Below are positions 2,861 to 58,663 of a stretch of DNA of 64,000 nt, one piece after another. A program made the position numbers and the translations under genes. Below the pieces are notes generated by a model. That model did not search any database. It was given only the letters and a program-made list of their open reading frames with translations, and was not told the origin of the DNA. The DNA comes from Amphiscolops sp. MND2022 (taxonomy: Eukaryota). The stretch lies in contig OZ076421.1 in assembly GCA_964187785.1 (NCBI GenBank), positions 43,710,001 to 43,774,000 of the forward strand. The letters are read 5' to 3'. Every line of letters starts with the position of its first letter. The first letter of the stretch is position 1.

Positions 2861-3030
2861 CAATTCCGGTTTAATTTACAAACAGACGTGGAGCGAAAAG
2901 CAACTGGCTTTCCCACAACAAACTGTCATCGGCAACTGGTTTTATCAAAACAAACTGTCGTTACACCTTCGTAAGTGTGAAGCTATGTGCTTTAAGATTG
3001 ATCCACTGACAGATGTGACTATAAACAACG

Positions 3031-3496
3031 AACAAGACGGGAACGTCTCAAGTCGGCGCTATATCTAAGGCTCAAAAAGCGCAAAACATTTTTTTTGGAA
3101 AAAACTTGAAACTTTTCTTTCGGAAAATGTCGCACAGTGCCGAAAAATGTAAAAGGGGGACCCTTTTTGATTTATAAACACGCATTCTGTAGCAAAATAA
3201 CAAAAAACTCAAAGGGGGGACCCTTTGGGGACATTAAAAAAATTTCGAAAAAAGTCTCACAGTGCCGAAAAAAAATTGAAAGGGGGGACCCTTTAGTCCC
3301 GTCCGGGCTTGTAGGTAACGTTTAAAAAGTAAATGAATGCGCTCCCAGTTTGCTTTTACCGGTCCAGTAGTTTAGTACTGTATTTAGTAGTTGAACGTTA
3401 ATTTTAACGTTCGTCGCTTCGAGTCTGTCTTAAATAAAAAAAAACGAGTGACTGTAATAGTCGGGCTCTTTTCTTAAGAAAAGCGCCGACTAAAAA
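3031..3496 (+). mobile_element. Non-autonomous repeat family A (Helentron/HINE-like), copy 1
   Basis: Starts AACAAGACGGGAACGTCTCAAGTCGGCGCT and ends with the hairpin TAGTCGGGCTCTTTTCTTAAGAAAAGCGCCGACTAAAAA. Internal AAAGGGGGACCCTTT motifs. Homologous to four other copies in the window. Confidence 0.7.
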
Positions 3497-4708
3497 CTGC
3501 CTAAGCGAATCGCATGTAATTATCGTGGAGTGTTCGGGGACCAGACGCTCTACTCCTTTATGATCACTTTGAGTATGTAGTCAAAACGTTGAATAATTAC
3601 AGTGGATCAATTTATACAGTCCGTTTAACTTACTCCAGAAAGTGTTTACCGATGCTTTGCAACTCCTTTGCAAACTCTATCTTTTCCTACGGAAAACGGA
3701 CGTTAAAAATACAAAATGCAGCGAAAACCCAATCACGACAAAATTGAGAAAACTAAAAAAATGGAACACAATTTGTTTTCAGTCAAATGTTTGATGACTT
3801 TGGATATATGCTTGAACAGAACAAAAGTTTTAGTGTATTCAAAATATATGTAAATGAGCTTTTTGAAGAATTTTTCAAACAATTGAGAATGGAATCGCCT
3901 CTCCATTTATTTACTGCAGATGATAATTGCTCATATCATATGTGAAGAAGACAGAGACTCCTAGACATTACATACGGTCGCACTGTAGCCACATCAAAGT
4001 CGGTTGAAAATAGACGGAAAGTCTACAATTGGACCTACAAACCTCAAAGCATACAACTTCAACTTCACGGAAAGGCTACAGTCGGGATGTGACTCCAAAA
4101 GGTATAAAGCGTTTGAGCAACTCGCAAATGACCGTACAACTCGAAAAAATGAATCTCCATATCATAGGTAGCAATGTTAGCACATCGACTTTTAAAATAT
4201 TTTTATGATTCTGTCAAACATCTGTCTATTTACTTGAAAGATAAGCACTGAAAAAATTCGTAGTGAATCTCCTACAGTCTTCCATATTTCGTTAGTGTGG
4301 GGCAGAAACTAGAAGAGCTGCTGGAGCTCGTTTTCTATCCTGATTGCATGATTAACCACAAGTTAAATAAACGCTTGTTACTAGTTTCAAGTTTATCCTC
4401 TCAAATAAACTTTTCTTTCCTTACCTTTGCACATAAATGTTTCGAAATATTTTTGGTTTTTGCCTCCTTTTCGGTATTTGAGGTAAAAAACAAGAATACT
4501 CGTAATTTTTAAATCAAACTTTTTGTGAATAAAGATACATATGATTGAACTCGAACATTACTTAGCCCATTTTAATGAATTCTTTGAACATTAAGATGTT
4601 TTGCAACCATGAAGTTACAGACATGCTGACAATGTTTTGAAAGTAGAATAAGCATAAGAGGACATTAGCGTTAGGTTAGTGTAATGAGTGGTAGGTAATG
4701 GGTCTGAC

Positions 4709-4957: not shown

Positions 4958-5272
4958 CTGTATTTTACTTTAATTCAGAGCTATTCCCATGTTTTGATTC
5001 CAAAAACAGTCAACAACTCAGGAAAAAAAGCATCTGAAAAAATTCGAAATTCTAAACTATTTTTGTTTTAAACTTGGTAATAGAGAAATTTGATCAAGTG
5101 GTTTCAAGTACATCGACTACGAGAATCCGGAGAATTGAACACTTACTAGCAAATAGTTCAAAAATGATGTCAAAACGGAGGTAACTTCTGATGAATTCTA
5201 TTTGGTCTTATAATCCTCTAATCAACTTAGTATTCTGGGAAGAAAAAACATTTCACGTTTTGGCGCTCTATG

Positions 5273-6197
5273 TGTCGGAACGTGCCTCATGACTATTTGA
5301 GACAGTGTTTAGTTCGTTCCCTTCTCCATTGCTAGAGGATATCGTTTCGGTCAAAGCAAGTACTAAATTTGTCAACTCGTTTATTTGTCTATTCATGTCG
5401 GAGAAACGCTGGTTAACAGAATCTCGTCCAGAATGGTTTTGGTAATTGATTCAGTAATTTGTTCCCTAGTAAGGACTTCGGGAATACTACATTCGCTCTC
5501 AGAATCACTATGTCTATCCATTTCGTTCGGATCAATTTGATTACTCCTAATTGTCTGCGATCTCGTTTTAACCAAAAAGAAAAAGTATAGGAGTTTTGAA
5601 GTATGAATTGAAATGTTGAAATGTTGGATTATATTGGAGGTAAGTGGTAATAGCGACTGCACTGTATCGTATAACTAAATCTATGATGGCGCCCAAGATT
5701 GAGTATGTCGGCGTAGTTCGCTTCAGTACAGCGACCAATCACATATCAGTATTTCGATTGTGTTAATTAGCACCTTGGTTGGTAGTAACGTGGTTTGAGT
5801 CTACATTTGGTAGTTACGTTACCATAGTAACATGACTCACTAATTAGGTGCGAATGATATAACTTGGTACAAATGGTATTGCTATGTAGTGATGCAGCCA
5901 ACATTATATGTATCAATGGTTAAAATGGACATTTAATCATAATGCACTAAGACTAAAAATGGAAACTGATGATGATCTATCATCTACATTACAAACGTGG
6001 TTAATAATGATATCGCGAATCAGTTCAATAATCACATGAAGGAAAATGGATGATTTATGTTTATGAAACGTTGGTAGTTTGAGAATAAATCTAAACGATT
6101 CACTATAAATGTTTTTGTGTTTTAGTTTTATGATGCAGCTTGTTCAACAGCATTCTTCACTTTCGTATGTAATTATTTTCATGCTTTAGGCATGACA
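5273..6197 (-). mobile_element. Solo LTR (925 bp) containing a frameshifted ORF at its 3' end
   Basis: Termini TGTC...GACA with 5-bp TSD CTATG at 5268-5272 and 6198-6202. Minus-strand ORF MDRHSDSESE...(shift)...NQRFSDMNRQINELTNLVLALTETISSSNGEGNELNTVSNSHEARSD ends at the terminus. Confidence 0.75.
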
Positions 6198-8759: not shown

Positions 8760-10074
8760 AAAGTGTGTTGTTCGTTCCATTTTGGGGGCATGGGGTCACC
8801 TGGTGGAGTGGGTGATAGTGGTACCCCCCATGTGGGAGTACCAGTCTGTCATGTCTTCGTGTGGGTGCGCATGGCTGTGTGGGTGGGTGCCTGCCCCTGT
8901 CCCGTTGACTCCCATCACAGGGTGCATGGACTGCAGTGTGGAGGAACAGTCTACCGTGGTCTTCATGGTGGAGTTCCGTCCGAACGAGGAGTACATGGAG
9001 GAATGGCCGGTGGGAGAGGAAGGAATGCCCCCTAGAGGTCTGCTACCCAACCGGGCACCACACAGGAGTCAAAGGTGCGCTTCCAGCCTTTTTTTCTTGT
9101 TATTATTTGTGTAGTACGGTACTCCGCCTAGTTTTCCGGTTTGTTTTGCAAAAGGTAGTCTATTTGATCTTCTGACCGATTCTGTCGGTTTTATTTTTTG
9201 GTGTTTCTTTTTATATCTACCTTGTTCCGGGGTTAGGTTGTTCTCTTTTGGGAGTAGTTGTAGTTCGTCGTCTGGGGTTGTGGTTATTGGCTTTCCTTCC
9301 GACTTGTTGTAGCAATCGAGTTCATCGTCCGATATGATGCTCAAGTTCAAATCGGTGCCCCCATTTTTGTTGGGGGATGTAAATTGTCTCTTGTTGTTTC
9401 TGGGTTTATCCCTTCTTTTCGTCCAATAGTCGCTTCTTTCGTACTTTGTTGGTTTGGGCGTTTTTTTGCGGCTGTAGATGCAGGGAGCTCCGTTGCCATT
9501 TGTTGCGTCTAGTATTTTGGAGCAAGTTGGTTGGTCTGCCGTGTTGTTGCGGGTGTTTATTAGTTTTGTCGGTACTCTGGCTGTTTGCTGAAAAGGTAAT
9601 GGGTTTGAAAATAATTTTCGGTGTGTTATTTTGTTCTTGTCGGTAGTGACGGTGTGTTTGGTTCCTGATACAGTTGTTTGGATTTTGTACTTGATTTTAC
9701 TCTCCAGTGATCCTTTTCTGTAATTTTTTGTCGTAAAATTTTAAAGGGAATTCGAATTTGTTCGTACTTACCGAACTGATCGGTTTCTTTCTCTGTGAGA
9801 ATGTCATGCCTCGTCTGAACTTTGGTTCCGCCAACTTTTTCTTGGACATGACCAGGTGGCCAGTTATTTCCCAGGCTGAGTTCCGGGTGATGTAGACCGA
9901 GAGGTCTTTAGAGTCCACTAAAAAAGAGTTTTTTAAATTTGATAGCTTGGTTCTCGGTTCGCGTCTAAAATGGGACTCAAAGGGAGTTTTTTAGTTTCTG
10001 AGTGTACCGTGAATCTTAGGAAGTATAATGCTCTGTTAACGCTTTCGCGTAGATTATGGTCGTCTTCCAGGTTA
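8760..10074 (-). mobile_element. Ty3/Gypsy remnant: integrase C-terminus and 3' internal region, cut by the scaffold gap
   Basis: Broken frames NLEDDHNLRESVNRALYFLRFTVHSETK, DSKDLSVYITRNS..EIT.HLVMSKKK and RRSNRLPFAKQTGKLGGVPY parallel the pol C-terminus of the intact element at 53148-54300. No LTR found. Confidence 0.75.
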
Positions 10075-16874: not shown

Positions 16875-17553
16875 TGAAAAGGCCTGAAATGCAGTACAGA
16901 AAAAAGACCTCAAATTGGGTGACTTTGCAGTGTCATAACTCCGACCCCAATAAAAGAATCAACCCCAAAATAGCGGTGAACCCAATTATTTGAGCCAAAC
17001 TACCGATTTAGCACAAAAAACTGGAAATCAAAGCAACTTTTTTTCAAAAAATGTTTTTATGGGGGTTTTTGGACTTTTCGATCAATACATCACTTTTCTC
17101 GCAAATATTGCCCTCCATTTCCTGTTTAAATCACTTTAGCCCTCATATTTGTTTGTGATCGTGTTGTGAGAACATATTTGAGTATTTGTAGCCAATATTA
17201 GCCTACTTAGATAGGCAGAAAGTGCCCAAGATAGTGTATTTATTGATCACGGAAGTGTAGTTACTTATTGTAAATCAGCGGATATACTCTCATAACTTTC
17301 TATTTATGCATAAATATTTACTTCTATGTTGTTTACTTTTTTAGTAGATGTACCTGAGAAGTTGTATAATCATATTAGAACGGAAAATTGACTTCTTGAA
17401 AGCAAGTTGTGAGTGTTTTTAGAAAATGAAATATTCAGTTTTCATCACGGATTTGTAGAGTTTTCGGGATCTTTACAATTTTTTGCAAGTTAAAATTATC
17501 CCAGGGACAGGCCGACGGTTCGAACGCCTTAGCTACTAGAATCAGCCTTTACA
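16875..17553 (+). repeat. BEL/Pao 5' LTR (679 bp)
   Basis: Direct repeat of 24319-24998 with about 40 differences by hand count (~94% identity). Confidence 0.95.
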
Positions 17554-17556
17554 TTT

Positions 17557-17574
17557 TGGTGCCGCGACCCGGGA
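17557..17574 (+). promoter_or_regulatory. Primer-binding site, tRNA-His-like
   Basis: TGGTGCCGCGACCCGGGA lies 3 nt after the LTR and resembles the complement of a tRNA-His 3' end (TGGTGCCGTGACTCGG). Confidence 0.65.
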
Positions 17575-17791
17575 AGGTTGCGTTATAATTCACTATCTTT
17601 GACTTCTGTTCTTCTTTTCTCAGCTTTGTTAGATTTGCAGATACCCAACTGGTTTGCTCAAATCTTGAAGAAAAGCAAAATTCTTATTTAACTGGACATT
17701 GTATTCATGTCACAGAGACCCTAATTCATTGTCCATCGGTTTTACCAAATTACTACATAGCAGACAATTTAGCAGAAGTTACTGTACAAGG

Positions 17792-20700
17792 ATGGCGACA
17801 TTTGACCGAACCGACCCGAAGGTAATGACAGTAAAGAAAGGCGGAACAACACAGGTGTTGTTATTTTCGGATGCCTTGAAGAACTCATCCACTGCTGCAG
17901 AATGGAGGGAACACGAACTGCGATTTGCTAAATTAGTTGAAGCAATAGCACAGATATCTTCGAAATTCGATTAACTGAAATCTAAAGGAAAAGATTACGA
18001 ACCCAGTATTTACGAATTGGGTAGTCTTTATCAAGAATATAGCAAATCCATTGAAGGAATAAGTAACGAATGCAACAGTTACATCAACTGCTCCAAGACA
18101 AGTATCAGTCAAAACGTTGCAAAGACTTGTCTTGTCTAACGGGTGGGCTTGAGCAACTTTACAAAGAATGCTCAACAATATGTAGCAACTTGAAAAGATG
18201 TGAAACAGTTCATCCTAATTTGAAGGATAAAGGTCAGTTTCTACGTTACTGTAACCTATCAGATCAATTTAACGACGCCCGTGTCAAGATTCAAGATGAA
18301 ATAGTCAAGACTGATTCATTGATTGCACAGGGCGCTAGATCAACTAAGGTCAAATCAGCTTTACCAAAGGTTCGAGAGATGAAAGACGAAATGGACAAAG
18401 CTCTGAAGGAGCAACGAACTCTGATGAATCTGCATTTTGGCAATCGCGAGTTTTTTGCACCGAAGGAAGCCATTCTAGCTGAAGTCGAGAGAGAACTCCA
18501 GAAAGCAACAATTGAATGGATCAGCTATGTAGATCCAGATAGCAAGGATACCAACACCGCACCAAAAAACCTTGCAGCAGAAGATGCCACGATAGCCGAA
18601 GAACGTTCGGAAACCCACAATCTCTCGACTAATCCCGAAACAGATCAGGGTAAACGCAAGAAAAGTGCTGTTGAGAAAAAGGATCAGAGCTTGAAATTAC
18701 TGAAGAGTTTTAATGACACAATTTCTCGAGACGAGTCAAGTAAATACGAGGAAGGCTCTACGAAATACGAAGCTCCGGGAGACAAAAGTCAGGAGCTGAA
18801 GCCATTAACCAGTAATTTTCGATCGACGATGAAAAGTGCTGCCAGTGAGACTTCGAAGTATCAACATTCCAACACCGGTTCTCGATCTTCACGACTCAGT
18901 GAACGTCGGCGACTTGAAGTCGAGCAAAACTGCTGGAGCAAGAGTCGCGAATGGCGATTTAGAAAAAAAGAAAGAGAATTAGAGCTGAGACGCAAGCAGC
19001 GACAACTGGAAATGGAGATGGAAACGAAACCCGAAGAAAAGCAAGCTGCAACAGAGTTGGCTGATTTACGGGATCAGACCTCCCTAAAGATGCAGGAAAT
19101 GAAACTTCAAATTGAAGAAGCAGAAGGCTCTTGCAATGGGTCAACTGTTAGCCCCAGTCTGATGTCGAGAGCAAATGATGCCGATAAGAACAGCGACATC
19201 AAAAGCTGGTTAGATCAAAACAGCGACGTTATGAATATTCAGAATCAAACTTCGCAGAATGTCGTGAAAACAGGAAAGAGAGACACTGCTATCTCTAGTG
19301 ATGCCGTTGCTTAACGAAGTAGAGGAAAACTTTTGAAAGTGGTCGAAAGAAAGGATCCTTCTGCAGAACGCAAAGACAGACGGGTAAGTGATCGAGGTGA
19401 TAGAAGCCAAAATCGTTCAAAATCAAGAACCTTCTCACCGAAACGACACCTCAATGCGAATTGCGAAGTGCACAACAGGGTCTCACGTTTCGATTCAATG
19501 CCTTGCCAACAACCTGTCCTGCCCCTGTGGACAGTCCAAACATCCAGTCTACCGAAACTGAAGATGACCGAATTTGCATGTGATCCTCTGGAGTGGCCCG
19601 AATGGTCCAGTCTGTTTAATGCAGTTATTCACAATGCGCCAATCGATGACAATGCGAAAATGAGCCACTTAAAGACGTTGGTTAAAGGGAAAGCCAAATC
19701 CGCTATTGCCGTTCTTGGTTACTCTGGAGCTTTATATCACACTGCTGGGACACGTTAGTTCGCAACTTTGGTTGACCCCAGACAGTGGTTAATGCTCAAA
19801 TGAAACTCATCCACACGTCTACATTCATCAAATCTCACGACTCAGAGATATATTATCAAATATGCCCAACTCATAACGACGTGTGGGAGTGTTTTAAATC
19901 AGTACGGCTTTACTGGTTATCTTATCTCAGAGTCTGTTTTGAACAGCGCCGTAAGAAAACTACCTCCAGAGCTGAAAACGAAATGGTTGTTCTTTGCAAA
20001 AGGACAAAAATACTAAACTGCAAATTTCAGTAAACTTAGTGAGTGGTTGAACGACAGTGCATTCGTTCATGATGAACTGCTGGTGGAATTCAGGCAAATC
20101 AACGACAAGAACCAGTCCACGTCGGCTGACCGAACAAAAACAACAGGATCATCCATGTCCGCAACTGCCAACGAAACTGGGTTGTCTTCCTTTAATTCTA
20201 ATCCAAAAGGTCCAATAAAATGTGTTGTCTGCGGCAATACCCATGGATTATGGGCTTGTGATGCTGTCAAGAAACTGGCTCCTTTCGACAGATACAAAAA
20301 AAGGTGAAGGAGAACAAATTGTGCTTCCTCTGTTTCCGTGGGGGCACGCTGTGAAGGACTGCAAGATGGAAGAATGTGCAATCGACGGCTGCAAAAGTCG
20401 TCACAACAGATTACTACACGGACCAGGAGAGACCCAAATCGCTAACACAACGTCGAGGGAGACTGTGGAAACTCATGCAAGCGTAAGTTTGAACACTTTT
20501 GGCATTCTACCTGTGTACAAAGTGGAGCTCTCAAACATTGGGAACAGGGTGAAACTCCTTGCGTTAGTTGATAGTGGATCTAGTCTGTCATGGATTGATA
20601 AAACGTCAGCAGGTCAACTTAATCTGCAAGGAGTCAAGCGTAGTCTAACTGTCAGCGGAATAAATGGTACTGAATGTCACGAAAGTGAGATTGTTAATGT

Positions 20701-23700
20701 CACCACTCATTCGAAGGACTGCGGAAACGAGGATATCCAGATGGCTATTCATCAAAAGCTTGTCATTGGCGAGAGTTTTTACGATATTCGAAAAATGCAG
20801 AGTCAGTACCCTCAACTGATTAAAGTTCCATCAAACAACTTCAATCTGAAAGACGTCAAAGTTACCCTTGGAACAGATTGCTTCTCATTGACTCGACCCT
20901 TAGAATATCAACGTGGACAGCTAGGTGAGCCCTGGGCCGTTCGATGTTCTTTGGGTTGGACAGTCAGTGGACCACTGCCAAAAAAGATTGTGTCCTCGCT
21001 GACATCATGTCATAGTTCGGTTCATCATCCTGCAGATTTCGACTTGAACGAACAAATCAAGATATGGTGGGTCAACGAAAGTTATGGTTCACGAGTGAAA
21101 GTGGACGGGCGATCCAGATCAGATGTTGAAGCACTCGAAAATTTGGAAAAGACAACGCACTGTGAAAATGACAGGTATACCGTGGGAATGTTGTGGAATC
21201 TCCCCGTTCCAGACTTCCGAACAATTATCGTAGTGCAGTTAAACAGTTCTTGTCACTCGAAAATCGACTGTCCAAGAACCCAGAAATCAACGATGCGTAT
21301 TCAGATACAATCAAGACGGATAAAGATTCGGGTTATGTTCGGATACTTGAATCAACCGAGCTTCAAGAGACTAAAAATGAACCTCAGTGGTATCTGCCCC
21401 ATTACCTTGTAGTCAACCCGAACAAACCTGGAAAAGTAAGGCGCGTCTGTAATGCGGCTAGCGAATTTGAAGGACATTCCTTGAACAAAGGTCTCTTCAT
21501 TGGTCCTGATATACTACAAAATTTTGTGGGGATCATCTTCCGATTCCGGGAGAAGCCGTTTGGCATCAGCGCAGACATTGAAGCAATGTTCTTGCAGATA
21601 CAAGTCCCACCTGAAGATGCTAAATGCCTTCATTTCATTTGGCGAGAAAATCAATCAGACGACATATCCACGTATGAATACACTCGGCATATATTTGGAG
21701 CCAAAGACTCGCCAACATGTGCAAATTATGCTTTGCAACGTACCGCCACAGACAATGAAGAATAATTCCCAGTCGCTCTAGAATTGTGAAGCGGAATTTC
21801 TATATGGACAATTTCTTGTATTCTGCGGAAAATATCCGAGAAGCTGAATCTGTGAAACAGAACCTGATATCTCTCTTGCAGAAAAGCGGTTTCAAGTTTT
21901 CCAAATGACAATCAAATGTGAAAGAATTGTGCGAGAAAGACAGTGACGTGGAGAATGTTACTGCTTTGTGTTTGGAATGGAATCTCATCTCGGATGAACT
22001 CAAACTATGCAGTGGTTTTGCAGGCAAAGAGCATACCATAATCACTCACAGAGTGGCTCTGTCCGTGGTATCCTCCATCTTTGATCCGTTGGGACTGGCT
22101 TTACCCTTCACAATCAGAATTCGTCTTATTTTACGACTTATTTGACAGAAGGCTTTGAAATCTTGGGATGAAGAAATTCCGCAAGATGTTGCAAAACAAT
22201 ATCTCGAACGGTTACAAGAAATTCCAGCCCTCAAGGATCTCTCAATAAACCGGCATTATGGCTGGCAGCGTGGCAGTAATGTACATTTACATGTGTTTGC
22301 CGATGCATCAGAAATGGGACTTTGTGTCGTCGCCTACTTGAGGTTCGAGATTGATGGTAAGGTAAAAGTTTCTTTCGTAATGGGGAAAACAAGAGTGGCT
22401 CCTATCAAAACTACTACAATTCCAAAACTGAAGCTTCGAGCAGCCCTTCATGCTTCACGGATGAAAGTATCCATCATAGAAGAACACGATTTCACCATAA
22501 ATCAAGTTTTCATGTGGAGTGATTCATCAACAGTGATACAATGGTTGAATGCATTTGAAAAGCAACAAATTTTTGTTGCGAATCGTTTTGGAGAAATTTT
22601 GGAAAACACCAAGCTGGGTGAAGGGAATCATATCCCTGGCGCACAAAACCCAGCAGATCTTGGCACGAGAGGGATGAGAGCCAATGAAAATGCGTCGAAT
22701 GTGTGGCTGAACGGGCCGGCGTAGCTGATTGAGAACGAAGCTCACTGGCCAAAAGCTACTGCTGCGTGCACCAATGTTGAAGACACTTCAGAAACGTCTC
22801 AAGTGGTTACTCTATTGCCAAACAAGCCACTTGAGATACAATGGGAACGATTTAGTTCTTGGACTAAATTAATTCACACAATTTGCTACATATTGCGCTG
22901 GAGACGACGCAATCAAAATAGAGGAGTGATTTCATTGGACGAATATCACAATGCAGAGCGAATCACTTTGAAATTGATTCAAAAGGAATCTTTTACGACT
23001 GAATATGATACCCTAGTCAATGGAAAAGAGTTATCTTGCAAATCAAACATTGCACAACTTTGCCCGTTTATCGACAATCAGGGTACTATGAGAGCACGTG
23101 GGCGTTTATCAAAAGCTGATATCGAATTCGATACTAAACACCCAATTCTTCTGCCATCCAAACATCCTGAAACACGACTGATGATGCCTAAACGTCATTT
23201 GGACAAATATCATCAAGGTGTTGAGATTATGCGACATGGATTGCAACAGAAATACTGGATATTGGGCCTCAAAAACGCCTTGCGGAACATCAAAAGTCGC
23301 TTTGTTCCTTGTAGGATATACAGTGCCGTTGTCCAAGTCCCAATAATGGCTGACCTACCTAGAGAAAAAGTGGAGAAAGTTGATTTCCCTTTTACTTATG
23401 TTGGAGTTGATTATTTTGGGCCCATAGAAGTGAAATACATGAGAAAAATCTTGAAGAGATGGGTGTGTGTCTTTACCTGCCTGTCGACAAGAGCCATACA
23501 CCTTGAAATGGTGTATTCGCTAGATACTGACTCTTGCGTGAGTGCTGTTTTACGATTCATTGCCAGAAGAGGTCACCCATTGACAATTTGGAGCGATAAT
23601 GGTACAAACTTCGTTGGTGCGAACAACGAGCTGAAGCAGTTTGCATCAATGTGGCAAAATAACTATTTCCAAGAAAAACTTCGTCAAAAGAAGATAGTTT

Positions 23701-24331
23701 GGAAATTCAACCCTGCTGCAGCGCCACATTTCGGAGGTTCTTGGGAGAGAATGGTGAAGACATGCATACAGGCCATATACCACGTTCTGAATGGTCAGAG
23801 GCTCACTGACGAGCTTTTAGTTACGATTCTTTGTCTCACTGAGCAACTGCTAAATTCTCGCCCACTCACGCCTAACTCTAATGATCCTTCCGATATGGAG
23901 GTTTTGACACCTCATCATTTTCTATTGGGCCGGCCGAGTGTTGCCATTCCATATTTGCCAGATGCGCAAAAGTACCAAAATCACAGGAAAATGTTCCGGG
24001 TGGCTCAGGCTCACATGGACAAGATTTGGGCAAGATGGTTGAAAGAGTACCTTCCGGTGCACAATATTCGCCAGAAATGGTACAAGGAACGTCCTCAATT
24101 GAAAGAAAACGACCTGGTGTGGATTATCGACCATCGTAAAAACGAGGTTTTTACCGCCTTGGTAGAGTCAAAAGGTGCCATTTTGGGAATGATGGCAATA
24201 TTCGATCTTGTGACATCCTAACCCAATCTGGAGTTGTTTCTCGACCTACAGTTAAGTTGTCCCGTATGTTGGACGACATTGGGTGTGTTCCTCCGCAAGA
24301 GAAACACAGGGCCGGCGATGAAAAGGCCTGA
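17792..24331 (+). pseudogene. gag-pol: BEL/Pao gag-pol, multiple stops and frameshifts
   Basis: LPKLKMTEF..DPLEWPEW (BEL gag), CVVCGNTHGLWAC knuckle, ALVDSGS protease, WYLPH.VVNPNKPGKVRRVCNAAS RT, LHVFADAS RNase H, VGVDYFGP and WSDNGTNFVG integrase. The terminal frame ends at TGA 24329-24331 inside the 3' LTR. Confidence 0.92.
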
Positions 24332-24998
24332 AATGCAGTACAGAAAAAAAAACCTCAAATTGGGTGACTTTTCAGTGTCATAACTCCGACCCTAATGAAA
24401 GAATCAACCCCAAAATAGCGGTGAACCCAATTATTTGAGCCAAACTACCGATTCAGCACAAGAAACTGGAAATTGAAGGAACTTTTTTTCAAAAAAATTT
24501 TAATGGGGGGTTTTTGGACTTTTCGATTAATATATCATTTTTCTCGCAAATATTGCCCTCCATTTCCTGTTTAAACCACTTTAGATCTCTTATTTGTTTG
24601 TGATCGTGTTGTGCGAACATATTTGGGTATTTGTAGCCAATATTAGCCGACCGAGATAGGCAGAAAGTGCCCAAGATAGTGTATTTACTGATCACGGAAG
24701 TGTAGTTACTTGTTGTAAATCAGCGGATATAATCTCATAACTTTATATTTATGCATAAATATTTACTTCTATATTGTTTACTTTATTAGTAGATGTACCT
24801 GAGAAGTTGTATAACCATATTAGAACGGAAAGTTGACTTCTTGAAAGCAAGTTGTGAGTGTTTTTAGGAGTTGAAATATTCAGTTCTCGTCACGGATTTG
24901 TTGAGTTTTCGGGATCTTTACAATTTTTTGCAAGTTAAAATTATCCCAAGGACAGGCCGACGGTCCGAACGCCTTAGCTACTAGAACCAGCCTTTACA
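24319..24998 (+). repeat. BEL/Pao 3' LTR (680 bp)
   Basis: Direct repeat of the 5' LTR, followed by TSD ATTTG. Confidence 0.95.
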
Positions 24999-29900: not shown

Positions 29901-31507
29901 ACCTGCAAACATCAAGGCTTGAAATTGCCACCAAAACGGTGATGAATCTTTCAAACAGCTTGATAAATACAACAGGGAAATATTTTTGCATGAAAGTTTC
30001 CGTAAGAGTTAGAAAATCATATTAAAAGTTTCTTGCATCATTAAAGTACATGCAAATAGTTCAAGCATTTTCAACAAGGAATATTATTATATTTCGTTAA
30101 TGGAGCACATTCGTTCCTTATTTACCTCATTAGTTTGGAAAATATGGTTATCTTGAAATGACATTAGTATAATCATTGTATGATTCACATATACCTTTTG
30201 CTTTCATTTTTAGTTTTATAATTGTTGGAACGGTAAAAAGACAAAACGGTAATATATTTTGATTGGGGTTCACTAGATCTGAAAATTTCAAATTTGAAAT
30301 TAGACATGGACAAAGCAGTAGTTCAAAAGTCAATGAATTTGCCCAATTTGCGTACACACTTTACGGAAATCAAAAACTGAACTTTTTCCAGCAAAATATG
30401 AAAAATGGCGCTTCAAATTAGCCATTAGGTGAAGTTAGATGGCGTAACAATTTGAATAGGGTAGGTATCTATATAAAAATGCTCTCAGTAACGCTATTGA
30501 TGAAAGAATTATCCCTCAAATACCAGCTTTTCATGCAAATTGACAGACGAAATTCGAACACTAAAAGAAAAATGACGGATTTATCTAACAAAGCGGAGTA
30601 ATTATTCAACAATAATTTGCGCTCGAAGCCAAATTCATGCTCTTATTCAAACATTCGCTCGAATCAACGTCAGAGAGAAAAGAATTTTAAACGAGATGAC
30701 AATCACTGCATCAGCCGAGCTATTTACGATTCCTTTGGGATAATTTTTTCCACTTTTGACACTATAAACGATTACACATGAATTCATACTAATAACTCAA
30801 GTTTGATTTTTTCAGAACCTCAGGTGTCATCCTGAATGATTATTTTTGAGTTTCTATGGTTATTAGAATTTGAGTTCTTCTCAGGTTTCCTAAACATCAC
30901 GGTGGAAACATAGGTTTTACGTTATTTAAAAAATGAAGCTTTTAAATTTTTCGATGTGGTGAACATTTATTGAACTAAATTAATGAAGCCAGATTTTCGA
31001 ACCATTATAAAACTACATCGAAAAGCTTGAAAAAAGTTTCATTTTCGGTCTTTGCATTTCAGCAATTGCATAAATTTGAAACATTGTTCTTTCACAATCA
31101 ATAAAAAAATTACGAAACGCAAAAAGCATATAGGAAAACGAAAGTTTGTCTTTCTTATCAACAATCCATTGGACTATTTGGGGCGAATTGTTAATTGTGT
31201 CAATATAGTTTGTTCTTCGAGCCACCGGCAAAAAAGTAACTGGAAAAAAGTGAAAATTTGCAAAAAAAACTTTTTCAGAAAATTAGCTTTTCCTCTATAA
31301 CACAGCAACTGTTTGCTAAGTTACTGTCACACTCTAGTGACACAGTTTGCCACCATTGAAAACGCATATAGAAGTTTTTTTCAATGAAGCTTCAGCTAAG
31401 AGTTCGACCGGCATTTGAAAATGGCACTAACTACCAACTTAACTGGTGTGCATTTCAATTGAAATGCTTAATTTTTTAAAACATTTTTCAACATTTTTTA
31501 ATTCTTT

Positions 31508-31681
31508 AACATTTTTTAATGTTTAATTTCTCTACGAATAAAAGCCACAGCCCAAATCGGTTTTCTGCTCCTGAAAGCCCTTTACTTAAGCTTTAAAGCT
31601 TAACTAAAGGGCTTTCAGGAGCAGAAAACCGATTTGAGCTGTGGCTTTTATTCGTAGAGAAATTAAGCATTAAAAAATGTT
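31508..31681. repeat. 174-bp near-perfect palindrome with no spacer
   Basis: Two 87-bp arms with 3 mismatches, centred on CT-TTAA-AG (31594/31595). Confidence 0.95.
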
Positions 31682-33495: not shown

Positions 33496-35106
33496 TGTCG
33501 CAGGCGGCTGCCTGCGGTGGCAACTGGTACTCAATTGCGTAAAATCATTACAACTCTCTCCCTGGAACGATCCCCCTTGATTGAGGAAAGTGGACACGTT
33601 GTCCCAAAGGACAAAATAAAACCAACAAACTCAATTTTCACACAACCATTATTTTACTCTGTTGCTATTAGTTTAAAATTATTATTCGGAGCTATAACAA
33701 AAAACCTAGGTCTAGTTTAATCTTTTGATACTGTTGGAACAAGATATTTTTAAATGATATTTTCACATGTAAATTATAGTCAATTGCTAATAATTGGACA
33801 CCAAGGCGAACAGGCAAAGGAAACGTGTTCAAATGTTTCTTTGCCTATCGCCTTGGACAGCTAGTCTGATTGAATTTAGACAAATCAGAGACGTGCAATA
33901 ATTAACTTGCTGTGCAGTGAAAGCTTTGATTTAGAGGCCGTACAGGGCCGTTCACCTAATTGGAATAGCCTACTATAGCTGAGGGACATCGAAGTCCTAC
34001 CTTAATTTGAACGTGCAATATGGTTGAAATATAATCTCAAACACAGCCCTTATGGCTCGGTGGAAATGGCAATCTGTCTTATTAGATACATGAAATCGTC
34101 GCCTGAAGTTATATGTATCATACGAAAGTGGACGTATTGTCCTTTTTCCCCCTTTTCTTTATTAGATGTTCATACAAGTTACATGTATTAAGCATGCAAC
34201 CCCGTATAGTGCTTGATGAGATATTGGTATGGCCTACAAGGCCACTTTAATATTTTCCTGTTTTATATGTCATGAAGGCTATATTTAGATATTACTTCAT
34301 GATGCTATATATAGTAACGTATTTTGGTTACTGTTACTATTTTTAGACTTTATGTCCGAAAAATAGCTACATGACTTACTGATTTATGCAAGTCATGGAA
34401 ATTTGACTATATATACCCGGGACTCTAAGTCCCGGGGACAATAATATATTTATGTGCACTACATTACAGTTGATGAAATTACAGTTTGCAAGCTAAGGAT
34501 AATTAACTTCTTTCCTCTTGCAATAACTTCTTATGCCTTCCACTAGAAGACAGAAGGCGAAAGCTAGAAAGTCAAAGGAGATGGACATGATGTCCGATTT
34601 TGAAAATTTGGACGTTATGCTTGGAAATGACAACGTTAATCCAATTGAGCGTGAGCTTTCAAATGTAATTGGGAATTCAGAAAGCCATTACGACGATGAG
34701 CTCAATTCACACCCTATGGAGAATGATTTCGGTGAAAACGGCTTTGGACACCATGTCCGTGAAAACACAATTCGTAGGCAAGACAGATTTCAAGAGACAA
34801 TGGAAACCTTTACAAGTGAATTCAACATGAGGCTCTCTCAAGAAATGGACTGAATGATGTCCATGATGCACAATCAAATAAACCGGGCAATTAGTACTGC
34901 GATAGCTGAAAGAGTTCCAGAGATTCCAGAGATTCAGAACATAGTTAGTTAAATGTCATCTTCAGGGAATCGGGACACCGAGGCAAGTTCGTCCCCTAAT
35001 AGTCAGGAAAATACTGAAAGGTACAATGGGTTCAAAACTAAAATTACAAAGAAGGACTCGCGATCTGCTTGTTACCTAAGAGCCACTAGGGACAGTAGTC
35101 CTTACA
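33496..35106 (+). mobile_element. Solo LTR (1611 bp) containing a 191-codon ORF relic at its 3' end
   Basis: Termini TGTC...TACA with 5-bp TSD ATATG at 33491-33495 and 35107-35111. Confidence 0.75.
34533..35106 (+). pseudogene. LTR-embedded ORF (MPSTRRQKAKARKSKEMDMMSDFENLDVMLG...), two in-frame stops
   Basis: Single frame from ATG 34533 to the LTR end, interrupted only by TGA 34851-34853 and TAA 34950-34952. Each stop is one substitution from TCA (Ser). Confidence 0.7.
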
Positions 35107-35625: not shown

Positions 35626-36007
35626 TTTTTTAGTCGGCGCTTTCCTAGTGAAAAGAGCCCGACTATTACAGTGGCTTTTTTTTCTTTTTTTTTTCGTTAG
35701 ACCACAGACCTCATCGTGTATGTACCACTTTTTAGTACAGATTTTACTCGGTTTAGGGGTCACGGGTTTCAGTCCTTGCTTTAGCCAGATACTTTCTCGA
35801 AGGGTCCCCTCTTTCAATTTTTTTCGGCACTGTGCGACTTTTTTCAAATTTTCTTGTCTCCAAAGGGTCCCCCCCTTCATTTTTTTGATATTTTGCAACA
35901 AACTGGATTTTCAAAAATGCCGGAAGGGTTCCCCTTTTACAGTTTTAAAAACGTTGCGGTTTTTGAGCCTTAGATATAGCGCCGACTTTAGACATTCCCG
36001 TCTTGTT
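35626..36007 (-). mobile_element. Repeat family A, copy 4 (both ends present)
   Basis: TTTTTAGTCGGCGCTTTCCTAGTGAAAAGAGCCCGACTA at the left and AGCGCCGACTTTAGACATTCCCGTCTTGTT at the right. Confidence 0.7.
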
Positions 36008-37629: not shown

Positions 37630-38033
37630 ATTATTTTCCGACCCCACATTTTATAAATAGGGGAGGAAAATCATGATATGTGATGCGTTTTTTTCCAAAT
37701 TCTGCCAAAACTCCACGTAATCCACTTGACTATTTTGCATTTAGTTACTTGACTATTTCAGTTACTAGTCAAGTTACTTGACTATTTCAGTTACTAGTCA
37801 AGTAACTAAAATAGCTGACAGCGGGAATAATATCTGAAGTCAAAAAGGAGAATAAGATCTAGAGGGAATACGACCTAAAATTTCAGGACGGGAATATGAT
37901 CTAAAAGGAATAAGATCTAAAATCGCTAAATTTTAGATCTGATTCTTTAGATTCTATTCTCAAAATAGCTATGGCTCTGTTGGTAAAAGGGAACAGGGCG
38001 GAAAATATCCCATCGCTTAGCGGGCGTCTTGTT
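37630..38033 (-). mobile_element. Repeat family C (AACAAG-starting, TAAGATCTAAA and TAGTCAAGTAACT internal repeats), copy 1
   Basis: Reverse-complement homolog of 59824-60184. Ends GCTTAGCGGGCGTCTTGTT. Confidence 0.7.
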
Positions 38034-38107
38034 CCAGTTTTAGCGTAAAGAGTTCCTTTTCACACTGTGACATGAAAGTTGTTCACTATCATCAAGCATT
38101 ACTGAAG

Positions 38108-38524
38108 AACAAGACGGGAACGTCTAATGTCGGCGCTGTATCAATGGCTCAAAAAGTGCAAAAATTTTAAAATTGTAAAAGGGGGACCCTTTGGGCTTTT
38201 TCAACATCTGTCCAATTGCAAAATATCAAAACAAATTGAAGGGGAGACATTTAAAAATTTCGACAAAAAAGTCTAACAAAGCCAAACAAGGGGAAAGTTT
38301 CATTATGCCAAAAAAATGGAAGGGGTGACCCTTCTGAGTTTTGTATTTCAAGTTAGAGGCTTTTGGATGCGTTCAAAAAATACTGAGTACATGGTAAAAG
38401 TACTTGGTAAAAGTGCATAATGCACAAAAAGTGGCACATACAGGGTGAGCTATTTGGTCTGACGAAAACAAACTAGCCACTGTAATAGTCGGGCTTTTCC
38501 CATTAGAAAAGTGCCGACTAAAAA
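38108..38524 (+). mobile_element. Repeat family A, copy 5 (both ends present)
   Basis: AACAAGACGGGAACGTCTAATGTCGGCGCT ... TAGTCGGGCTTTTCCCATTAGAAAAGTGCCGACTAAAAA. Confidence 0.7.
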
Positions 38525-38928
38525 CGGAAATGATCTTTTCTACTTTGGATATTTTTTGAAAAGTAACACGTTGTATCCAGACCAGTGTCTTTACTGTGAC
38601 TTTTCAATACACGATTGAGAAATTCATGAAACGTTTTTAGGAACATTCATGGAACATTGAAAAATGCGGACCATGTCATTAATTCCCCCCAGGTACACCT
38701 TGTTAGGAAACCACCCCCCTCCCCCGAATACGAAAGCACATTTTGCTCTTGAATAGAAATATTTCACTGATAAGAAAATATTATATGAAGGTATATACTT
38801 AGAGGATTGTCTCTACAGCTGTTTGGACACTTCAGGTGAAAAATTACCATAATTTTTTGCTATTTTTGTCCAAAATAGCAGAAATTCACGTTTGGAACAA
38901 GCTAAAATCGTGTAAAAAGCCCCCTATT

Positions 38929-52818: not shown

Positions 52819-53001
52819 TGTTATAGACTCGATAAAAGGTTTGAAGTAGGATGCTCAAGTTAAGAATGAGTAAGTAATGTAACATACAAAGTGTAGCTGT
52901 ATTCAACGTAAAGTTAGCATCAAAAATGAATATAGTCTAGAGGGCAATGTAAGTTCATTGGCAGGTACCTAATTACTGTTGTCTAGACTATTCTCTCTTC
53001 A
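52819..53001 (-). repeat. Gypsy 3' LTR
   Basis: TGTTATAG...CTCTTCA, 182/183 identical to the other LTR. Confidence 0.97.
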
Positions 53002-53014
53002 TTCCCCCCTCCTC
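53002..53014 (-). promoter_or_regulatory. Polypurine tract
   Basis: GAGGAGGGGGGAA on the minus strand, abutting the 3' LTR. Confidence 0.9.
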
Positions 53015-53147
53015 GGGATTGGTGAGAGCGATCTCAATTCTCGCCGGGTTTCTTGTTAGTTCCCGTCTTTGTTGTGTTCTTTGGGCTGCAGCGGGAGACG
53101 TTGGCTTTTCCGATGTTCTTTGACTTTGGATCTAAATTCAGATTTTG

Positions 53148-56100
53148 TTAGAAATATTCTATTCCTCCCATTTTTACTACTCTTTTTGCAGATTTTATTC
53201 TATCTGATCTGCGGATCCCTTTTTCTACCACCTTGTTTTCTATATTTTCCCCCCCGTCTAAATTAAGTTCTACTACACCTCTATTTGGGGACGTGTGTAT
53301 TTTTTGTGGCGATCCAGTAGGGGTGTTGTCGAAGTCCTTAGCAGTACGCTTTGTTTTCTCCGTGCTGCAGTCCACTGGTGGAGATATGGCGGGAGTTTCG
53401 TTATCTCGAGTCTCTTCTGTTGGTTTCACGGCATCGTCGTATTTGATTTCGGCTGTAATGGTTAGTTCCGGATCAATGTTTGCCGTGCTCGGTAATTCAT
53501 CCGCGTGTGATGACTGGCTGTCGGATATTACCGTGATATCCGGTCGTGCTTCGGACCTTTCAATTGGCATTGTGGGGATGGTTTTATCTGCGCTCGTTGA
53601 TTGTCCCTGTTGTTCGGAACGGATTCTTTTGTGGGTGTCACATAGATCATCGTGACTGAATCGGCCGCATCTGGTGCATCTGTTGGTGGGTTTCCTCGGC
53701 TCTTCTGTTTTCTTTGCTGGCTGAAATTTAAAGGGGTTAGATGCTAGTTTTTTGTGGATAACCTTTCCATCGGTTGTGGTTATCGTATGTTTAGTCTCAT
53801 TAGCTGCGGTTAAAATTTTATTGGTTTTGAACCTGCATTTCATTGCATTGGGCTTGGTTTCCTTTTCAAAAAATTGGTAACTTTCAAAATTGTCTCTTAC
53901 CGATCTACCCCTCTTCCTTGATTCATTGAGGACCAAATAATCTGCGAGTTCCCCGTCGGAATCGTGGACTGTAAAAACTTGTAGCTCCGCCGGTTGTGCT
54001 AAAAAATAATTAGTTAATGTTTTCTTCCAGTCCGCTAATAGGCAGGTGGGTTGTCCAATCAGATTGGTGATCGGTGTGCGCGGTTTTCGTCCGTGGTGTA
54101 ATTGAAAGGGAGTCATTTTCAGTATGTTATGTGGTGTTTGTCTAATTGTTTTAATTGCCCTTGCGACGCTTTCTTCAAAAGTTAGGCCGTCTTCTAAATT
54201 GGCTCTTGTTAATGACTTAATTGTGCGTATTGTTCTCTCGACCAATCCGTTTCCCGTATGTAAATTCGGGGTACATCTAATTCGTTTAATGTTTTCACCG
54301 TTGCAGTAATCTTTAAACTCGTTGCTTTTAAAACAGCTACCGTTGTCGGTGCGTATCGTTTACGGTGTTCCGTTGTCGGTGCAGTATTTTGTTAAAAACT
54401 TTATTACGGTCCGAGAGTCCGTATTTTTGCAAATTTGTGCGGTTGGCCATTTGCTAAAACGGTCGATGGCTACTAAAATGTGAATGTCTCCCCGCGATTT
54501 TGATTTGATTGGACCGGCGAAGTCCAATTGAATTTCTTGGCCGGGTTCGGTTAAAAGTTCGAGCCTATTTATTTCCGTTTGCGGTAATTGTGTTTTTAGA
54601 TTCTTACCTGCTACTCGGCAACTGGGGCAGTTTTCTGCCTTTTCTCTAATGTCCCGGTGTAGTCCCGGCCACCAAAATGCTTCTGCTGATTTGTCCATTT
54701 TGTTAATCGAGACATGGCCGCTGTGTAGCATGGCAATTATGGTTGACCGCATTGCTTCTGGGATGACGATTCTATCATTGTAGAATAGTAGTCCAAATCT
54801 GGTCTCCAGATGTTCACGGTGTGGTCGGTATGGGTAGAAGATACCGTCTCCTTTTCCAGCTTCTAGCGCGATGATTGCGTCAAGTATTTTAGTGTCCTGC
54901 GCAGTTTCCTCAACTAGTAGAGGTAAATCCATGGAAAAGTCTCTTTCGGCTCTTCTGATCGTTTCGGCTGTTTTCTCGTTTCGTTCTTCTGGCAGGACAT
55001 TTCGCTTCGCTGTTTGTTTCAATCTGATAAGATTGATGCTCTCATGTTTTTTGAACTTTTTGAGGATATTTGTTGGGCACTTTTCGGTTTTTACGTGGCT
55101 AATCTGGCTTTCATTGTCTGACGAGGTGTTTATCCAAGACTCGTGTAGGTTTTCGTTAAATTCCTGAGTGGGGTGGTCCCGAGTTTCTCGCAATGGTAAA
55201 AGAATCTATTGTAAATCAAGATGTTTAATTTCTCAATTTCTTTTCGATCTTGTTGCGAAGGACGATATTCCAATATCCGCTCGTTGTCCTTGCCTTTTCC
55301 CACAATTCTGGTTCGATTTGGTTGAAGAAGTTTAAATCGTTCGGTCCGTAGACGACTAGCTTCTGGGGAGTGTCCCCGTTTTTTGAATATAAACTGTAAA
55401 TCGATTCCGTTTACTTTATCCATCTTTGACATTTTCGGTGCTTGCGAATCAAAGTTTGAATTGTTTGGTGAGTCAATATCTTTTTGCGGTGAGAAAGTTT
55501 GGATTGAATGTTCGCGGTCGTTTTGTTTGCGTACTTGCGTTCTGCGTTCTGATTGGTCGGAATTCTTTACCGGTGGTGGTCGTCGCATGTGTTGCGTAAT
55601 ACTGCCGTTCGTACGATTGAACTCGAATAGGCCGTATATCTGATTGATTACGAATTCCTCTTCGGCTTCGCTTTCATCGCCTTCGTGTGGCGTTTCCGTT
55701 TCGTGTTCGTGTATGATCGGATGACGGCTTAAGTAATCTGTTAACGGAATGTTTTTACCAGCGGTGTATTGCACGTTGACATCGAAATGGCTCAATCGGC
55801 CTAGCCACCGTGTTAATCTTGCGCTGTATTGTTTGTGTGCCCTGTTTCGTTTTAGCAGTGGTTGTAGTGCCTGGTGGTCGGTCAAGAGGTTTACTTTTTT
55901 TCCGTTAACGTAATATCTGAAATATTCGAGGCCCCACAGGACGCCTAGCAATTCTAGTTCATTTATGGCATATTTTCGTTCACATTCGGTGAGAAATCGG
56001 CTGGCAAACGCCACCGGTCTGAATGTTTCGTTTTCTTTGTGCCATAGGGTTGCCCCTAATCCAGTATTACAGGCGTCGGTGGTTATGAAATTATCTTTCT

Positions 56101-58441
56101 TTGGGTCGAAGTGTGCTAGACATGGTGTTTCGGTTATTTCCTTTTTTAGTTGTTCAAAATCATCGTTTATTTCTTTCGTCCATTCCCATTTTACGTCTTT
56201 CTTGAGTAGTTTTCTCATTCTGTCGGTCTTTTTAGACAAGTTGTTCAAAAATTTTGATAAATGTTGTATTGAGCCCAGAAATGATTTTAGCTCTTTTGTG
56301 TTTGTGGGGGCTTTTAATTTTGTTATAGCCTCGGTTTTATCTTTAATTGGCTTTACCCCTTCTTGGTTTATCAAGTATCCTAACCAGGTCAGCTCTTTTT
56401 TGAACAGTTCTGTTTTTCTTTCACTCGCTCGGTAACCGGCTTCTTGCTATTTTATTAGAACTTCGCGTAGTTTCCGATCGTGTTCTTCTATCGTTCCGTT
56501 TGTGACGCAAATGATGTCATCTAACCATACCGGCGTTTTAAATTCTAGGACCTTATCTATATGTTCTTGAAATACCGTTGGTATGTCAGATAGGCCGTAG
56601 AATCCCTTCTTGAACCGGTAGTGTCCCGTGAAATCGCCGCCAATGATGGAGAACACGCAATGTCTTGATGCTTCTGCGGATAGTTTGGCCTGTCCGTATG
56701 CATAATCTAAATCAATCTTGGACATCCAAATTTCGCCGTTATTTTGTGTAATTTTTGCGGAAATTTGACTGATTAGTTCCTCCATATTTGGCATTGCTGC
56801 TTTTCTTTTTATGCAAGATTCGTTTAGTTTCCGGGAGTCTAGTGCAATTTTTACTGATTTGTCTTTTTTGATTGTTATAACGGCTGGTGAGACAAAGCAG
56901 TTTTCAGTTGTTTTATCAGCTTTTTCCAAATGTCCTTTTTCGATTAATTTTTCTAATTCTTTTTTCACGATTTTTTGAAAGTGTATTGGTACTGGTCTCC
57001 CCTTTTGTTGTATCGGTTTTGCGTCTTTTTTCAATTGAATGTCTATGGTTAAGTTTTTTATGGTGTGATTGTTTTTAAAAAGGTCCTCGAATTCTTTAAA
57101 AATTTTCTCATCTTTTTCGTTTGTGGTTATGCTCCTGATGTTGTTTGTTTCGTGGCTTCCTTGCAAACCGATTTCCAATTTATCTAGCCAATCCAATCCC
57201 AGCAGGGGTTGTGTATTCTTTTTCTCGGTTATTAGGATTGGCAACATCACTTTTGTTTTCTCTGTTTTGACCTCAACTATTGCTTCGCCTTTGAATTCTA
57301 TCGGGTTTTTGTTTACGTCCACGAAACACTTTGAAGTCGCTTTCATTTGTTTTGGAGTGATAATTGGTGGGATAATCGTTACTGGAGAGCCGGTGTCAAT
57401 TATGAATTCAATTGGTTGTACGTCCACCAATAGGATGGCTTTGTAGAAGTCTACTCGATTTATGCCGTTGACGGACTGAATGTGGTCAATTTCTGGCCAT
57501 GATTCCGTGTTGCTACCGGTATCTTCCTCTTGTATCCGGTTTACGGTTCTTGATCGGCAGACCTTTGCAAAATGACCGGACTTCTTACAGTTGTTACATT
57601 TTGTCTTCCGTGCTGGGCAAGTGTGGTCGGGTGTCCAGTTGGATTTTCCGCAGAAGTGGCAATTCCGCTCCGTGTTTCTCTTTTTAGCCGTGAACGTGGC
57701 CTTCTTCTTCGTTGCGGGTTTTGTGTATCCGACCTGTTCCTCGTCTGATGTGCTTTCGGATGGATTTTTCCGCTGTCTCTTGGAGGTTGTTTGTTTGTCT
57801 CCATATTTACGGTTATAGTTGTCCAGCTCAATGGTCTCCAATATCAGTGATAATTTCAGTGGGCCTTTGATGAATTTATCTCGGGCTTTTTTATCGTTTA
57901 TGGTTGCTGCAAATTTGTATGAAATGATGTCTTCGGGTGTGATGGTGTTAAATTCGCACTTTCTTTCAATGTCTACCAGCCTCTTCCAGTACTCGTCTAG
58001 GGTTTCGCCATCTTCTTGCTTGATATTAAAGAATTGGGCCCGGCTGTGGAATACATTCCTGGTTGGTAGGAAGGTCTTTTTGAATAGTTTCAACAACTCT
58101 TGGAGACTAATATCTTTAAGTTCCTTTCCCCATTGACCTCTCATGATTTCGTGCTTTGCTTTTGGGCCCAGTGCCCATATAACATCACCTTTGATGTGAT
58201 AGGTTGTATGAGGGTCCATGGAGTCCGTCCCTTGTTCCATCAGCTCGTCCAGTTTCTTTTGGTATGTCAAATCTATGTATTCGGATATTTGTTCCCACCA
58301 CATTTTGGGATTGGCTTTTGATAGGTCAGTTTCTCTATCCGATAAGATCGGGATCTTGCACTTGTTTCTTTCAGTCCTTTCGACTGTTGTTTGGTTGACC
58401 GCCGTTGGGTCGGTTTCGTTGTTGTTGTTCGTATTTTCCAT
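53148..58441 (-). pseudogene. gag-pol: Gypsy gag-pol single ORF with two nonsense codons and one frameshift
   Basis: CHFCG..CNNCKKSGHFAKVC knuckles, IDTGSP protease, WLDDII RT, TDACNTGLG / TDHQAL RNase H, H..H..WWPG..C..C and LDFAGP / TDNG integrase. TAG at 56447-56449, 1-nt deletion near 55164, TAA at 54360-54362. Confidence 0.95.
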
Positions 58442-58470
58442 CGGTTTTCTTCTCTTGTTCGTACTTCTAT

Positions 58471-58480
58471 GACTGCGCCA
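58471..58480 (-). promoter_or_regulatory. Primer-binding site, tRNA-Ser-like
   Basis: TGGCGCAGTC directly abuts the LTR and is complementary to the ...GACTGCGCCA 3' end of invertebrate tRNA-Ser. Confidence 0.75.
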
Positions 58481-58663
58481 TGTTATAGACTCGATAAAAG
58501 GTTTGAAGCAGGATGCTCAAGTTAAGAATGAGTAAGTAATGTAACATACAAAGTGTAGCTGTATTCAACGTAAAGTTAGCATCAAAAATGAATATAGTCT
58601 AGAGGGCAATGTAAGTTCATTGGCAGGTACCTAATTACTGTTGTCTAGACTATTCTCTCTTCA
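58481..58663 (-). repeat. Gypsy 5' LTR
   Basis: Direct repeat of 52819-53001, with the TSD TCTAC on its outer (58664) side. Confidence 0.97.

What the first reader, a model, noticed from the sequence alone, without database searches (positions are those of the whole stretch)
5273..6197. Second, unrelated-looking solo LTR with an ORF ending in the same phase at the LTR terminus
Seen: a 925-bp TGTC...GACA element with TSD CTATG. Its minus-strand ORF (MDRHSDSESE..., one frameshift, then 41 codons MNRQINELTNLVLALTETISS...HEARSD) ends ...TCC GAC A, again leaving the terminal A as codon position 1. Two LTR families of different length and sequence share the same layout (basic stretch, acidic Ser patch, heptad segment) and the same terminal phase. 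This argues for a conserved design rather than chance, although 1 in 3 would match phase randomly.
Basis: partly seen in the sequence, partly recalled or inferred. Interest (0 to 1): 0.7.

Follow-up and report, generated by a model that had tools for sequence, protein, structure and literature searches.

The report
Retrotransposon capsid gene starts inside LTR
This leftover terminal repeat of a jumping gene holds the broken first hundred or so codons of the element's capsid (Gag) gene, which in full-length relatives reads straight on through the primer site, and whose first residues are predicted to grip the host's nucleosomes.

Summary
The 925-bp solo LTR, its TSD and the minus-strand frame are real. 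The frame is the 5' end of gag. All 10 primer-site-bearing copies of this family continue it in frame through a tRNA-Leu primer site into capsid sequence, followed by a Ty3/gypsy pol. Over 70 junctions, 58 are open for 60 codons or more in this phase, against 0 and 2 in the others. The two window families are not unrelated: RT is 58-68% identical and post-primer Gag aligns at z 27, so the shared phase is one inherited trait, not independent design. The window copy has lost its start codon and frame, and stops one codon into the flank. The layout is known from yeast Ty1, here much longer (103-216 codons); the scan found it before on other DNA of this genome (e1-9174308). New lead: the conserved first residues (V-x-T-R-S) dock on the host H2A-H2B acidic patch in a model (0.75, best control 0.00), in the register of cytomegalovirus IE1, possibly from memory.

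The parts
5268..5272 (.). target-site duplication CTATG (left)
5273..6197 (-). solo LTR (925 bp) of a 14-16 kb Ty3/gypsy element; other copies are about 950 bp
   Evidence: paired LTRs 14.7 kb apart around gag-pol in L031/L032
6198..6202 (.). target-site duplication CTATG (right)
5274..5575 (-). LTR-coded 5' part of gag (107 codons in intact copies); here the start codon is lost and a short deletion near 5450 breaks the frame; reads one codon into the flank, then stops
5555..5575 (-). conserved Gag tip (x-V-K-T-R-S-Q), predicted arginine anchor for the nucleosome acidic patch in intact relatives
   Evidence: conservation; model (made with a natural relative, L140)
5492..5521 (-). acidic Ser-rich patch (MDRHSDSESE); the Met is internal
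5340..5411 (-). heptad segment, likely coiled coil (a/d positions hydrophobic in all 10 aligned copies)

Best explanation
The element is a solo LTR of a large Ty3/gypsy retrotransposon clade in which the gag reading frame begins 103-216 codons before the LTR's 3' end and runs in frame through the tRNA-Leu primer site into the capsid domain, so the shared phase is likely one trait inherited from the clade's ancestor. Shown: repeat anatomy, in-frame continuity, primer complementarity, homology of the two families, purifying selection on the LTR-coded part, decay of this copy. Inferred: transcription starts in the LTR upstream of the ATG, so that U5 and the primer site are translated; LTR-LTR recombination left this solo copy; the phase cannot drift because the primer fixes the LTR end and any shift would cut gag off from its start. 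Predicted only: the LTR-coded arm (basic tip, acidic linker, coiled coil) works as a chromatin tether, its Arg5 binding the H2A-H2B acidic patch (about 0.4).
For: 10 of 10 distinct primer-site-bearing copies among 30 loci continue the frame for 42-401 codons; 6 of 29 sister-family loci carry the same junction. 7 of 7 young elements (LTR pairs 98.9-100% identical, 15.2-15.7 kb) have one 515-541 aa frame from inside the LTR to the end of gag; it matches DUF1759 (6e-6), Retrotrans_gag (0.0017) and zf-CCHC, followed by protease, RT, RNase H, integrase. Primer site = 13-nt complement of tRNA-Leu 3' end plus CCA. 7,449 such junctions, control 1. Stops in the last 60 LTR codons: 29 of 4,200 in this phase, 465 and 265 in the others. 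pN below pS in 36 of 36 pairs; dN/dS 0.05-0.37 in the 16 unsaturated pairs (pairs not independent). Tether model: score 0.75, best of 3 controls 0.00, runs agree in at least 88% of contacts, partner pLDDT at least 52; mark reached by 51 of 78 solved and 2 of 108 mismatched microbial pairs.
Against: No RNA, ribosome or peptide data: start site and translation are not shown. No TATA box or poly(A) signal is shared at one position across five LTRs, so U3/R/U5 are not mapped. The junction pattern used fixes LTR end and primer site as adjacent, so families with another spacing would be missed. The LTR-coded peptides of the two window families are not detectably homologous (z 1.7). The tether model may be recalled from the solved IE1 complex, peptides are outside its calibration, my alignment was not used, controls were not basic peptides, and two of the three acidic-triad residues were not among the confident contacts; the [TL]R[SN] motif is in only 7 of 14 family representatives.
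Confidence: 0.92

Rival explanations
1. The open-ended phase is a convergent design of unrelated LTR families, for example to let solo LTRs fuse a ready-made N-terminal module to host sequence.
For: Same layout in LTR-coded peptides with no detectable sequence likeness; 2 of 6 solo copies keep an intact 107-codon frame.
Against: The families are one clade (RT 58-68%, post-primer Gag z 26.6). 4 of 6 solo copies are broken, and the frame runs only 1-27 codons into the flank. The window copy lacks its start and stops after one codon. An unrelated gypsy in the window (52819-58664) has another primer site, another phase and its first ATG after the LTR.
Confidence: 0.03
2. Gag is made from the ATG formed at the junction (terminal A plus TG of the primer site); the LTR frame is an open but untranslated leader, or the junction ATG gives a second, shorter Gag by leaky scanning.
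For: The junction codon is ATG, in frame with gag, in all 70 junctions (by construction of the pattern).
Against: Purifying selection, an invariant first Met and conserved tip in the LTR part do not fit an untranslated leader. The ATG follows from CA plus TGG in this phase. As an additional start it is not excluded.
Confidence: 0.04
3. The LTR frame is a separate short ORF, closed before gag.
For: In the window it does stop one codon past the LTR.
Against: That stop is host flank. No primer-site-bearing copy of this family closes the frame at the junction (10 of 10).
Confidence: 0.01

Closest known systems
Ty1 of Saccharomyces cerevisiae (Ty1/copia)
   Same: GAG starts inside the 5' LTR and reads through the primer site (PMC9283973, passages: the first GAG AUG lies upstream of an in-frame AUG at nt 321; the LTR length of about 334 bp and the read-through are recalled).
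   Different: Ty1 has about a dozen codons in the LTR (recalled), here 103-216; Ty1 is copia-type and uses initiator tRNA-Met (recalled), here gypsy order and tRNA-Leu.
Ty3/gypsy elements with antisense extra ORFs between pol and 3' LTR (Grande, RIRE2, Retand, Boty)
   Same: Long pol-to-3'LTR region with conserved antisense coding (PMC7264820, first third read; PMC11963269, passages).
   Different: Here the antisense gene has conserved GT/AG intron positions and a zinc finger, no TRP28 match; those papers, as far as read, do not describe gag starting in the LTR.
Acidic-patch tethers: cytomegalovirus IE1 CTD, KSHV LANA, prototype foamy virus Gag CBS
   Same: Hydrophobic residue three before the Arg, Thr before, Ser after (IE1 M483-V484-T485-R486-S487; PMC9040877, passages and section 7). 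The model places V2, T3, T4, R5, S6 on the matching H2A/H2B residues.
   Different: At the very N-terminus of a retrotransposon Gag and coded inside the LTR; binding is predicted only.

Membership tests
solo LTR | TG...CA ends, one TSD, no internal domain, same sequence flanks full elements | tested here: met
Ty3/gypsy LTR retrotransposon | pol order protease, RT, RNase H, integrase | tested here: met
   (relative L134); integrase after RT region in the finding's own family
Ty3/gypsy LTR retrotransposon | gag with capsid and CCHC knuckle | tested here: met
   DUF1759 6e-6 (over cut-off), Retrotrans_gag 0.0017 and zf-CCHC 0.0012-0.023 (under cut-off)
Ty3/gypsy LTR retrotransposon | tRNA primer site after 5' LTR, purine tract before 3' LTR, 5-bp TSD | tested here: met
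   TSD in 6 of 7 young elements
named gypsy clade | RT groups with named reference elements | not testable with these tools
   RT hits carried no informative names; the tree holds only this genome's sequences
Ty1/copia | integrase before RT | tested here: not met
BEL/Pao | Peptidase_A17 region and BEL-type RT | tested here: inconclusive
   DUF1759 matches, but no Peptidase_A17 row at E up to 1 and gypsy-type RT_RNaseH and Integrase_p58_C rows; no tblastn match to the BEL-like element in the window
nucleosome acidic-patch binders | Arg anchor in the H2A E61/D90/E92 pocket with hydrophobic residue in the H2A/H2B groove | tested here: inconclusive
   model puts R5 on the E61 equivalent and V2 on Y57/A60 equivalents; D90/E92 equivalents not among confident contacts
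nucleosome acidic-patch binders | measured binding lost on Arg substitution | not testable with these tools
   needs bench work
hAT transposase (for the antisense gene of relatives) | zinc finger, RNase H-like core, helical insertion, dimerisation domain | tested here: inconclusive
   zf-BED 0.079; Hermes at rank 43, Z 3.7, rmsd 9.3, 197 aligned; hhalign probability 0.1-1% against host hAT frames

The most novel reading that the evidence does not exclude
A Ty3/gypsy clade writes a chromatin-tethering arm of Gag inside its LTR: the first residues mimic herpesvirus and foamy-virus arginine anchors and bind the H2A-H2B acidic patch, guiding nuclear retention or integration, and every solo LTR keeps a copy of this nucleosome-binding module behind the element's promoter.
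Probability: 0.4. Interest if true: 0.7.

Novelty: new variant of a known kind. Interest (0 to 1): 0.42.

Why it matters
It explains the finding: the phase match is descent, not design. The layout makes U5 and the primer site double as protein-coding sequence over 300-650 bases, far beyond the Ty1 case, in a clade with at least 7,449 junctions in this genome, so LTR evolution here is tied to protein selection and LTR-masking annotation cuts off the first fifth to third of Gag. If the predicted tether holds, a retrotransposon Gag uses the same nucleosome docking site as foamy virus Gag, LANA and IE1, which gives a short, testable handle on how these elements reach chromatin.

Tried and rejected
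30223-30611 (TGTTG...CAACA, TSD ATAAT): single match; not shown to be an LTR. RNA: no RNA holder listed. Promoter and poly(A) motif scan: no shared position. Antisense gene: no Pfam match over cut-off, no PDB sequence match, first fold pLDDT 40, second 54.5, Foldseek nothing at E 0.001, VIA best Z 4.9, Atlas scores under 0.9, DUF4371 no match and no control rang; relatives found were unnamed. Literature: searches listed no paper on a gypsy gag with a long LTR-coded part; one search listed none on a retrotransposon Gag acidic-patch anchor (6 papers held the terms, 5 listed, 1 read in part). Phrase search is weak, and Repbase, GyDB and subscription journals were not searchable, so prior description is not excluded. 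PMC4489242 was a wrong id; the Ty1 review by DOI is not held. PMC7175516, PMC6431247, 10.1101/176248 and PMC13709905 (passages) did not state where Ty1 GAG starts. No supplements were read.

Full report
Observation. Window 5273-6197 is 925 bp, begins TGTC, ends GACA and is flanked by CTATG on both sides. A search of the window's genome (1.07 Gb) gave 47 matches from 40 scored of 419 candidates. Of 30 fetched loci, 6 are solo LTRs with perfect 5-bp TSDs, and 11 rows (10 distinct copies; L021 and L026 are one) are followed by a primer site.

What the frame is. In all 10 of those copies the frame crosses the LTR end and continues for 42 to 401 codons. The 13 bases after the LTR are the complement of the 3' end of host tRNA-Leu genes plus CCA (ARAGORN called 3 of 10 loci, two CAG and one AAG), and read M-V-T-G in this phase. 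The continuation is Gag: DUF1759 at 6e-6, Retrotrans_gag at 0.0017, CCHC knuckles, then protease, RT, RNase H and integrase. Seven young relatives picked from a gag search have LTR pairs 98.9-100% identical, span 15.2-15.7 kb, and carry a single 515-541 residue frame whose first conserved Met lies 106-107 codons inside the LTR. The window copy has lost this start (5573-5575), has a short frame-breaking deletion near 5450 relative to 6 of 6 copies compared, and stops one codon into the flank. It is a dead fragment.

Is it coding? For the LTR part, pN is below pS in 36 of 36 pairs of natural copies; dN/dS is 0.05-0.37 in the 16 pairs where dS is not saturated, against 0.02-0.05 for Gag after the primer site (pairs share ancestry). 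Conservation is highest in residues 1-7 (0.90), lowest in 8-18 (0.52), and the heptad a/d positions of residues 60-85 are hydrophobic in all 10 rows.

The phase. The probable first family (33496-35106) has the same junction in 6 of 29 loci that reach the LTR end (one of 30 did not). The pattern ACA plus primer site occurs 7,449 times, the reversed control once. Intact starts lie 103-216 codons before the end. But these are one clade: RT of the finding's family and close relatives is 58-68% identical to that of the 33496 family, and their post-primer Gag aligns at 27% over 285 residues (z 26.6), whereas the LTR-coded peptides do not align (z 1.7). One phase is barred by a TGA in the primer site, one other is open. 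So the match is one ancestral choice, kept because the primer fixes the LTR end and gag must cross it (inference). An unrelated gypsy in the window (52819-58664, RT 21% identical) has another primer site and phase and its first ATG after the LTR. Limits: the pattern cannot see families with a spacer, and the tree has no named references.

Solo LTRs as fusion donors. 2 of 6 solo copies keep the 107-codon frame; all six run only 1-27 codons into the flank. Nothing here points to use by the host.

What the arm may do. All 14 family representatives have a basic tip; a [TL]R[SN] motif is in the first 12 residues of 7 of 14, against 2.4% of other windows in the same peptides (motif chosen after seeing the sequences). 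I modelled residues 1-32 of a natural relative (L140) with host H2A and H2B. Score 0.75, best of three controls 0.00; runs agree in at least 88% of contacts; partner pLDDT at least 52; the mark was reached by 51 of 78 solved and 2 of 108 mismatched microbial pairs, and by 39 of 65 and 2 of 126 eukaryotic ones, peptides untested. Only residues 1-8 touch. R5 sits on host H2A E65 (canonical E61), V2 on Y61/A64 and H2B V41, T3 on H2B H106/E110, T4 and S6 on E68 (canonical E64). This is the register described for cytomegalovirus IE1 M483-S487 (PMC9040877, section 7 and passages). The pass may therefore come from memory of that structure; it shows the likeness, not binding, and the D90/E92 equivalents were not confident contacts. 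Together with selective conservation of the tip I put the tether at 0.4.

The rest of the element. Between integrase and the 3' LTR all 10 divergent families examined carry antisense frames with a C-x2-C...H-x5-H finger and splice signals at aligned positions: GT in 12 of 12, AG in 12 of 12, GT in 11 of 12, AG in 9 of 9 (anchors set by eye). An intron-bearing gene survives reverse transcription only in antisense (established logic of retrotransposition reporters, recalled). A dead hAT transposase was my guess; my tests are inconclusive. The scan reported this gene several times before. It is not in the window.

Comparison. Gag starting in the LTR is known from Ty1 (PMC9283973, passages, plus recall of the LTR length). 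The scan found this layout before in this genome (e1-9174308) and in others; my reading was stated before seeing them. My paper searches listed no description of so long an LTR-coded Gag arm or of an acidic-patch anchor in a retrotransposon Gag, but repeat databases were out of reach.

Verdict. Observation confirmed; interpretation partly supported. A new, extreme variant of a known layout; the window copy itself is an ordinary decayed solo LTR. Interest 0.42, carried mainly by the predicted nucleosome tether.

Noticed in passing
L135:1408-4991, L141:1492-5119, L143:1115-4704 and L228-L247 (not in the window): Antisense, intron-containing gene with a zinc finger between integrase and the 3' LTR in all families examined; 951 protein clusters at E 0.001; hAT origin unproven here; reported earlier by the scan.
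   Followed up: partly
L229, L231, L233, L237, L239, L245, L247, just before the 3' LTR: In the long-LTR families a further sense frame of 200-350 codons lies before or runs into the 3' LTR; not scanned.
   Followed up: no
window 52819-58664 (minus): Unrelated gypsy element with short (about 184 bp) LTRs 99% alike, gag-pol broken by stops, primer site TGGCGCAGTC; served as control.
   Followed up: partly
window 16875-24644 (plus): Decayed BEL/Pao-like element (by eye from the translation) with LTR copies 92% alike.
   Followed up: no
window 30223-30611: 389-bp TGTTG...CAACA stretch with ATAAT on both sides whose end resembles this clade's LTR end; single copy in the search.
   Followed up: partly
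window 9069-9740 (minus): Frame resembling the integrase tail of the 52819-58664 element family; a fragment.
   Followed up: no
G000:C8:35.59-35.65 Mb: Tandem array of tRNA-Leu-type 3' ends at about 296-bp spacing; 792 matches genome-wide; likely the primer source.
   Followed up: no
L020 and L037:7165-7443: A 5' LTR whose end and primer site occur twice as an inverted pair.
   Followed up: no
window 3030-3497, 35627-36007, 38107-38525, 37823-38033, 59824-60039, 61079-61291, 31508-31681: Dispersed inverted-repeat elements and long hairpins, probably non-autonomous DNA transposons.
   Followed up: no
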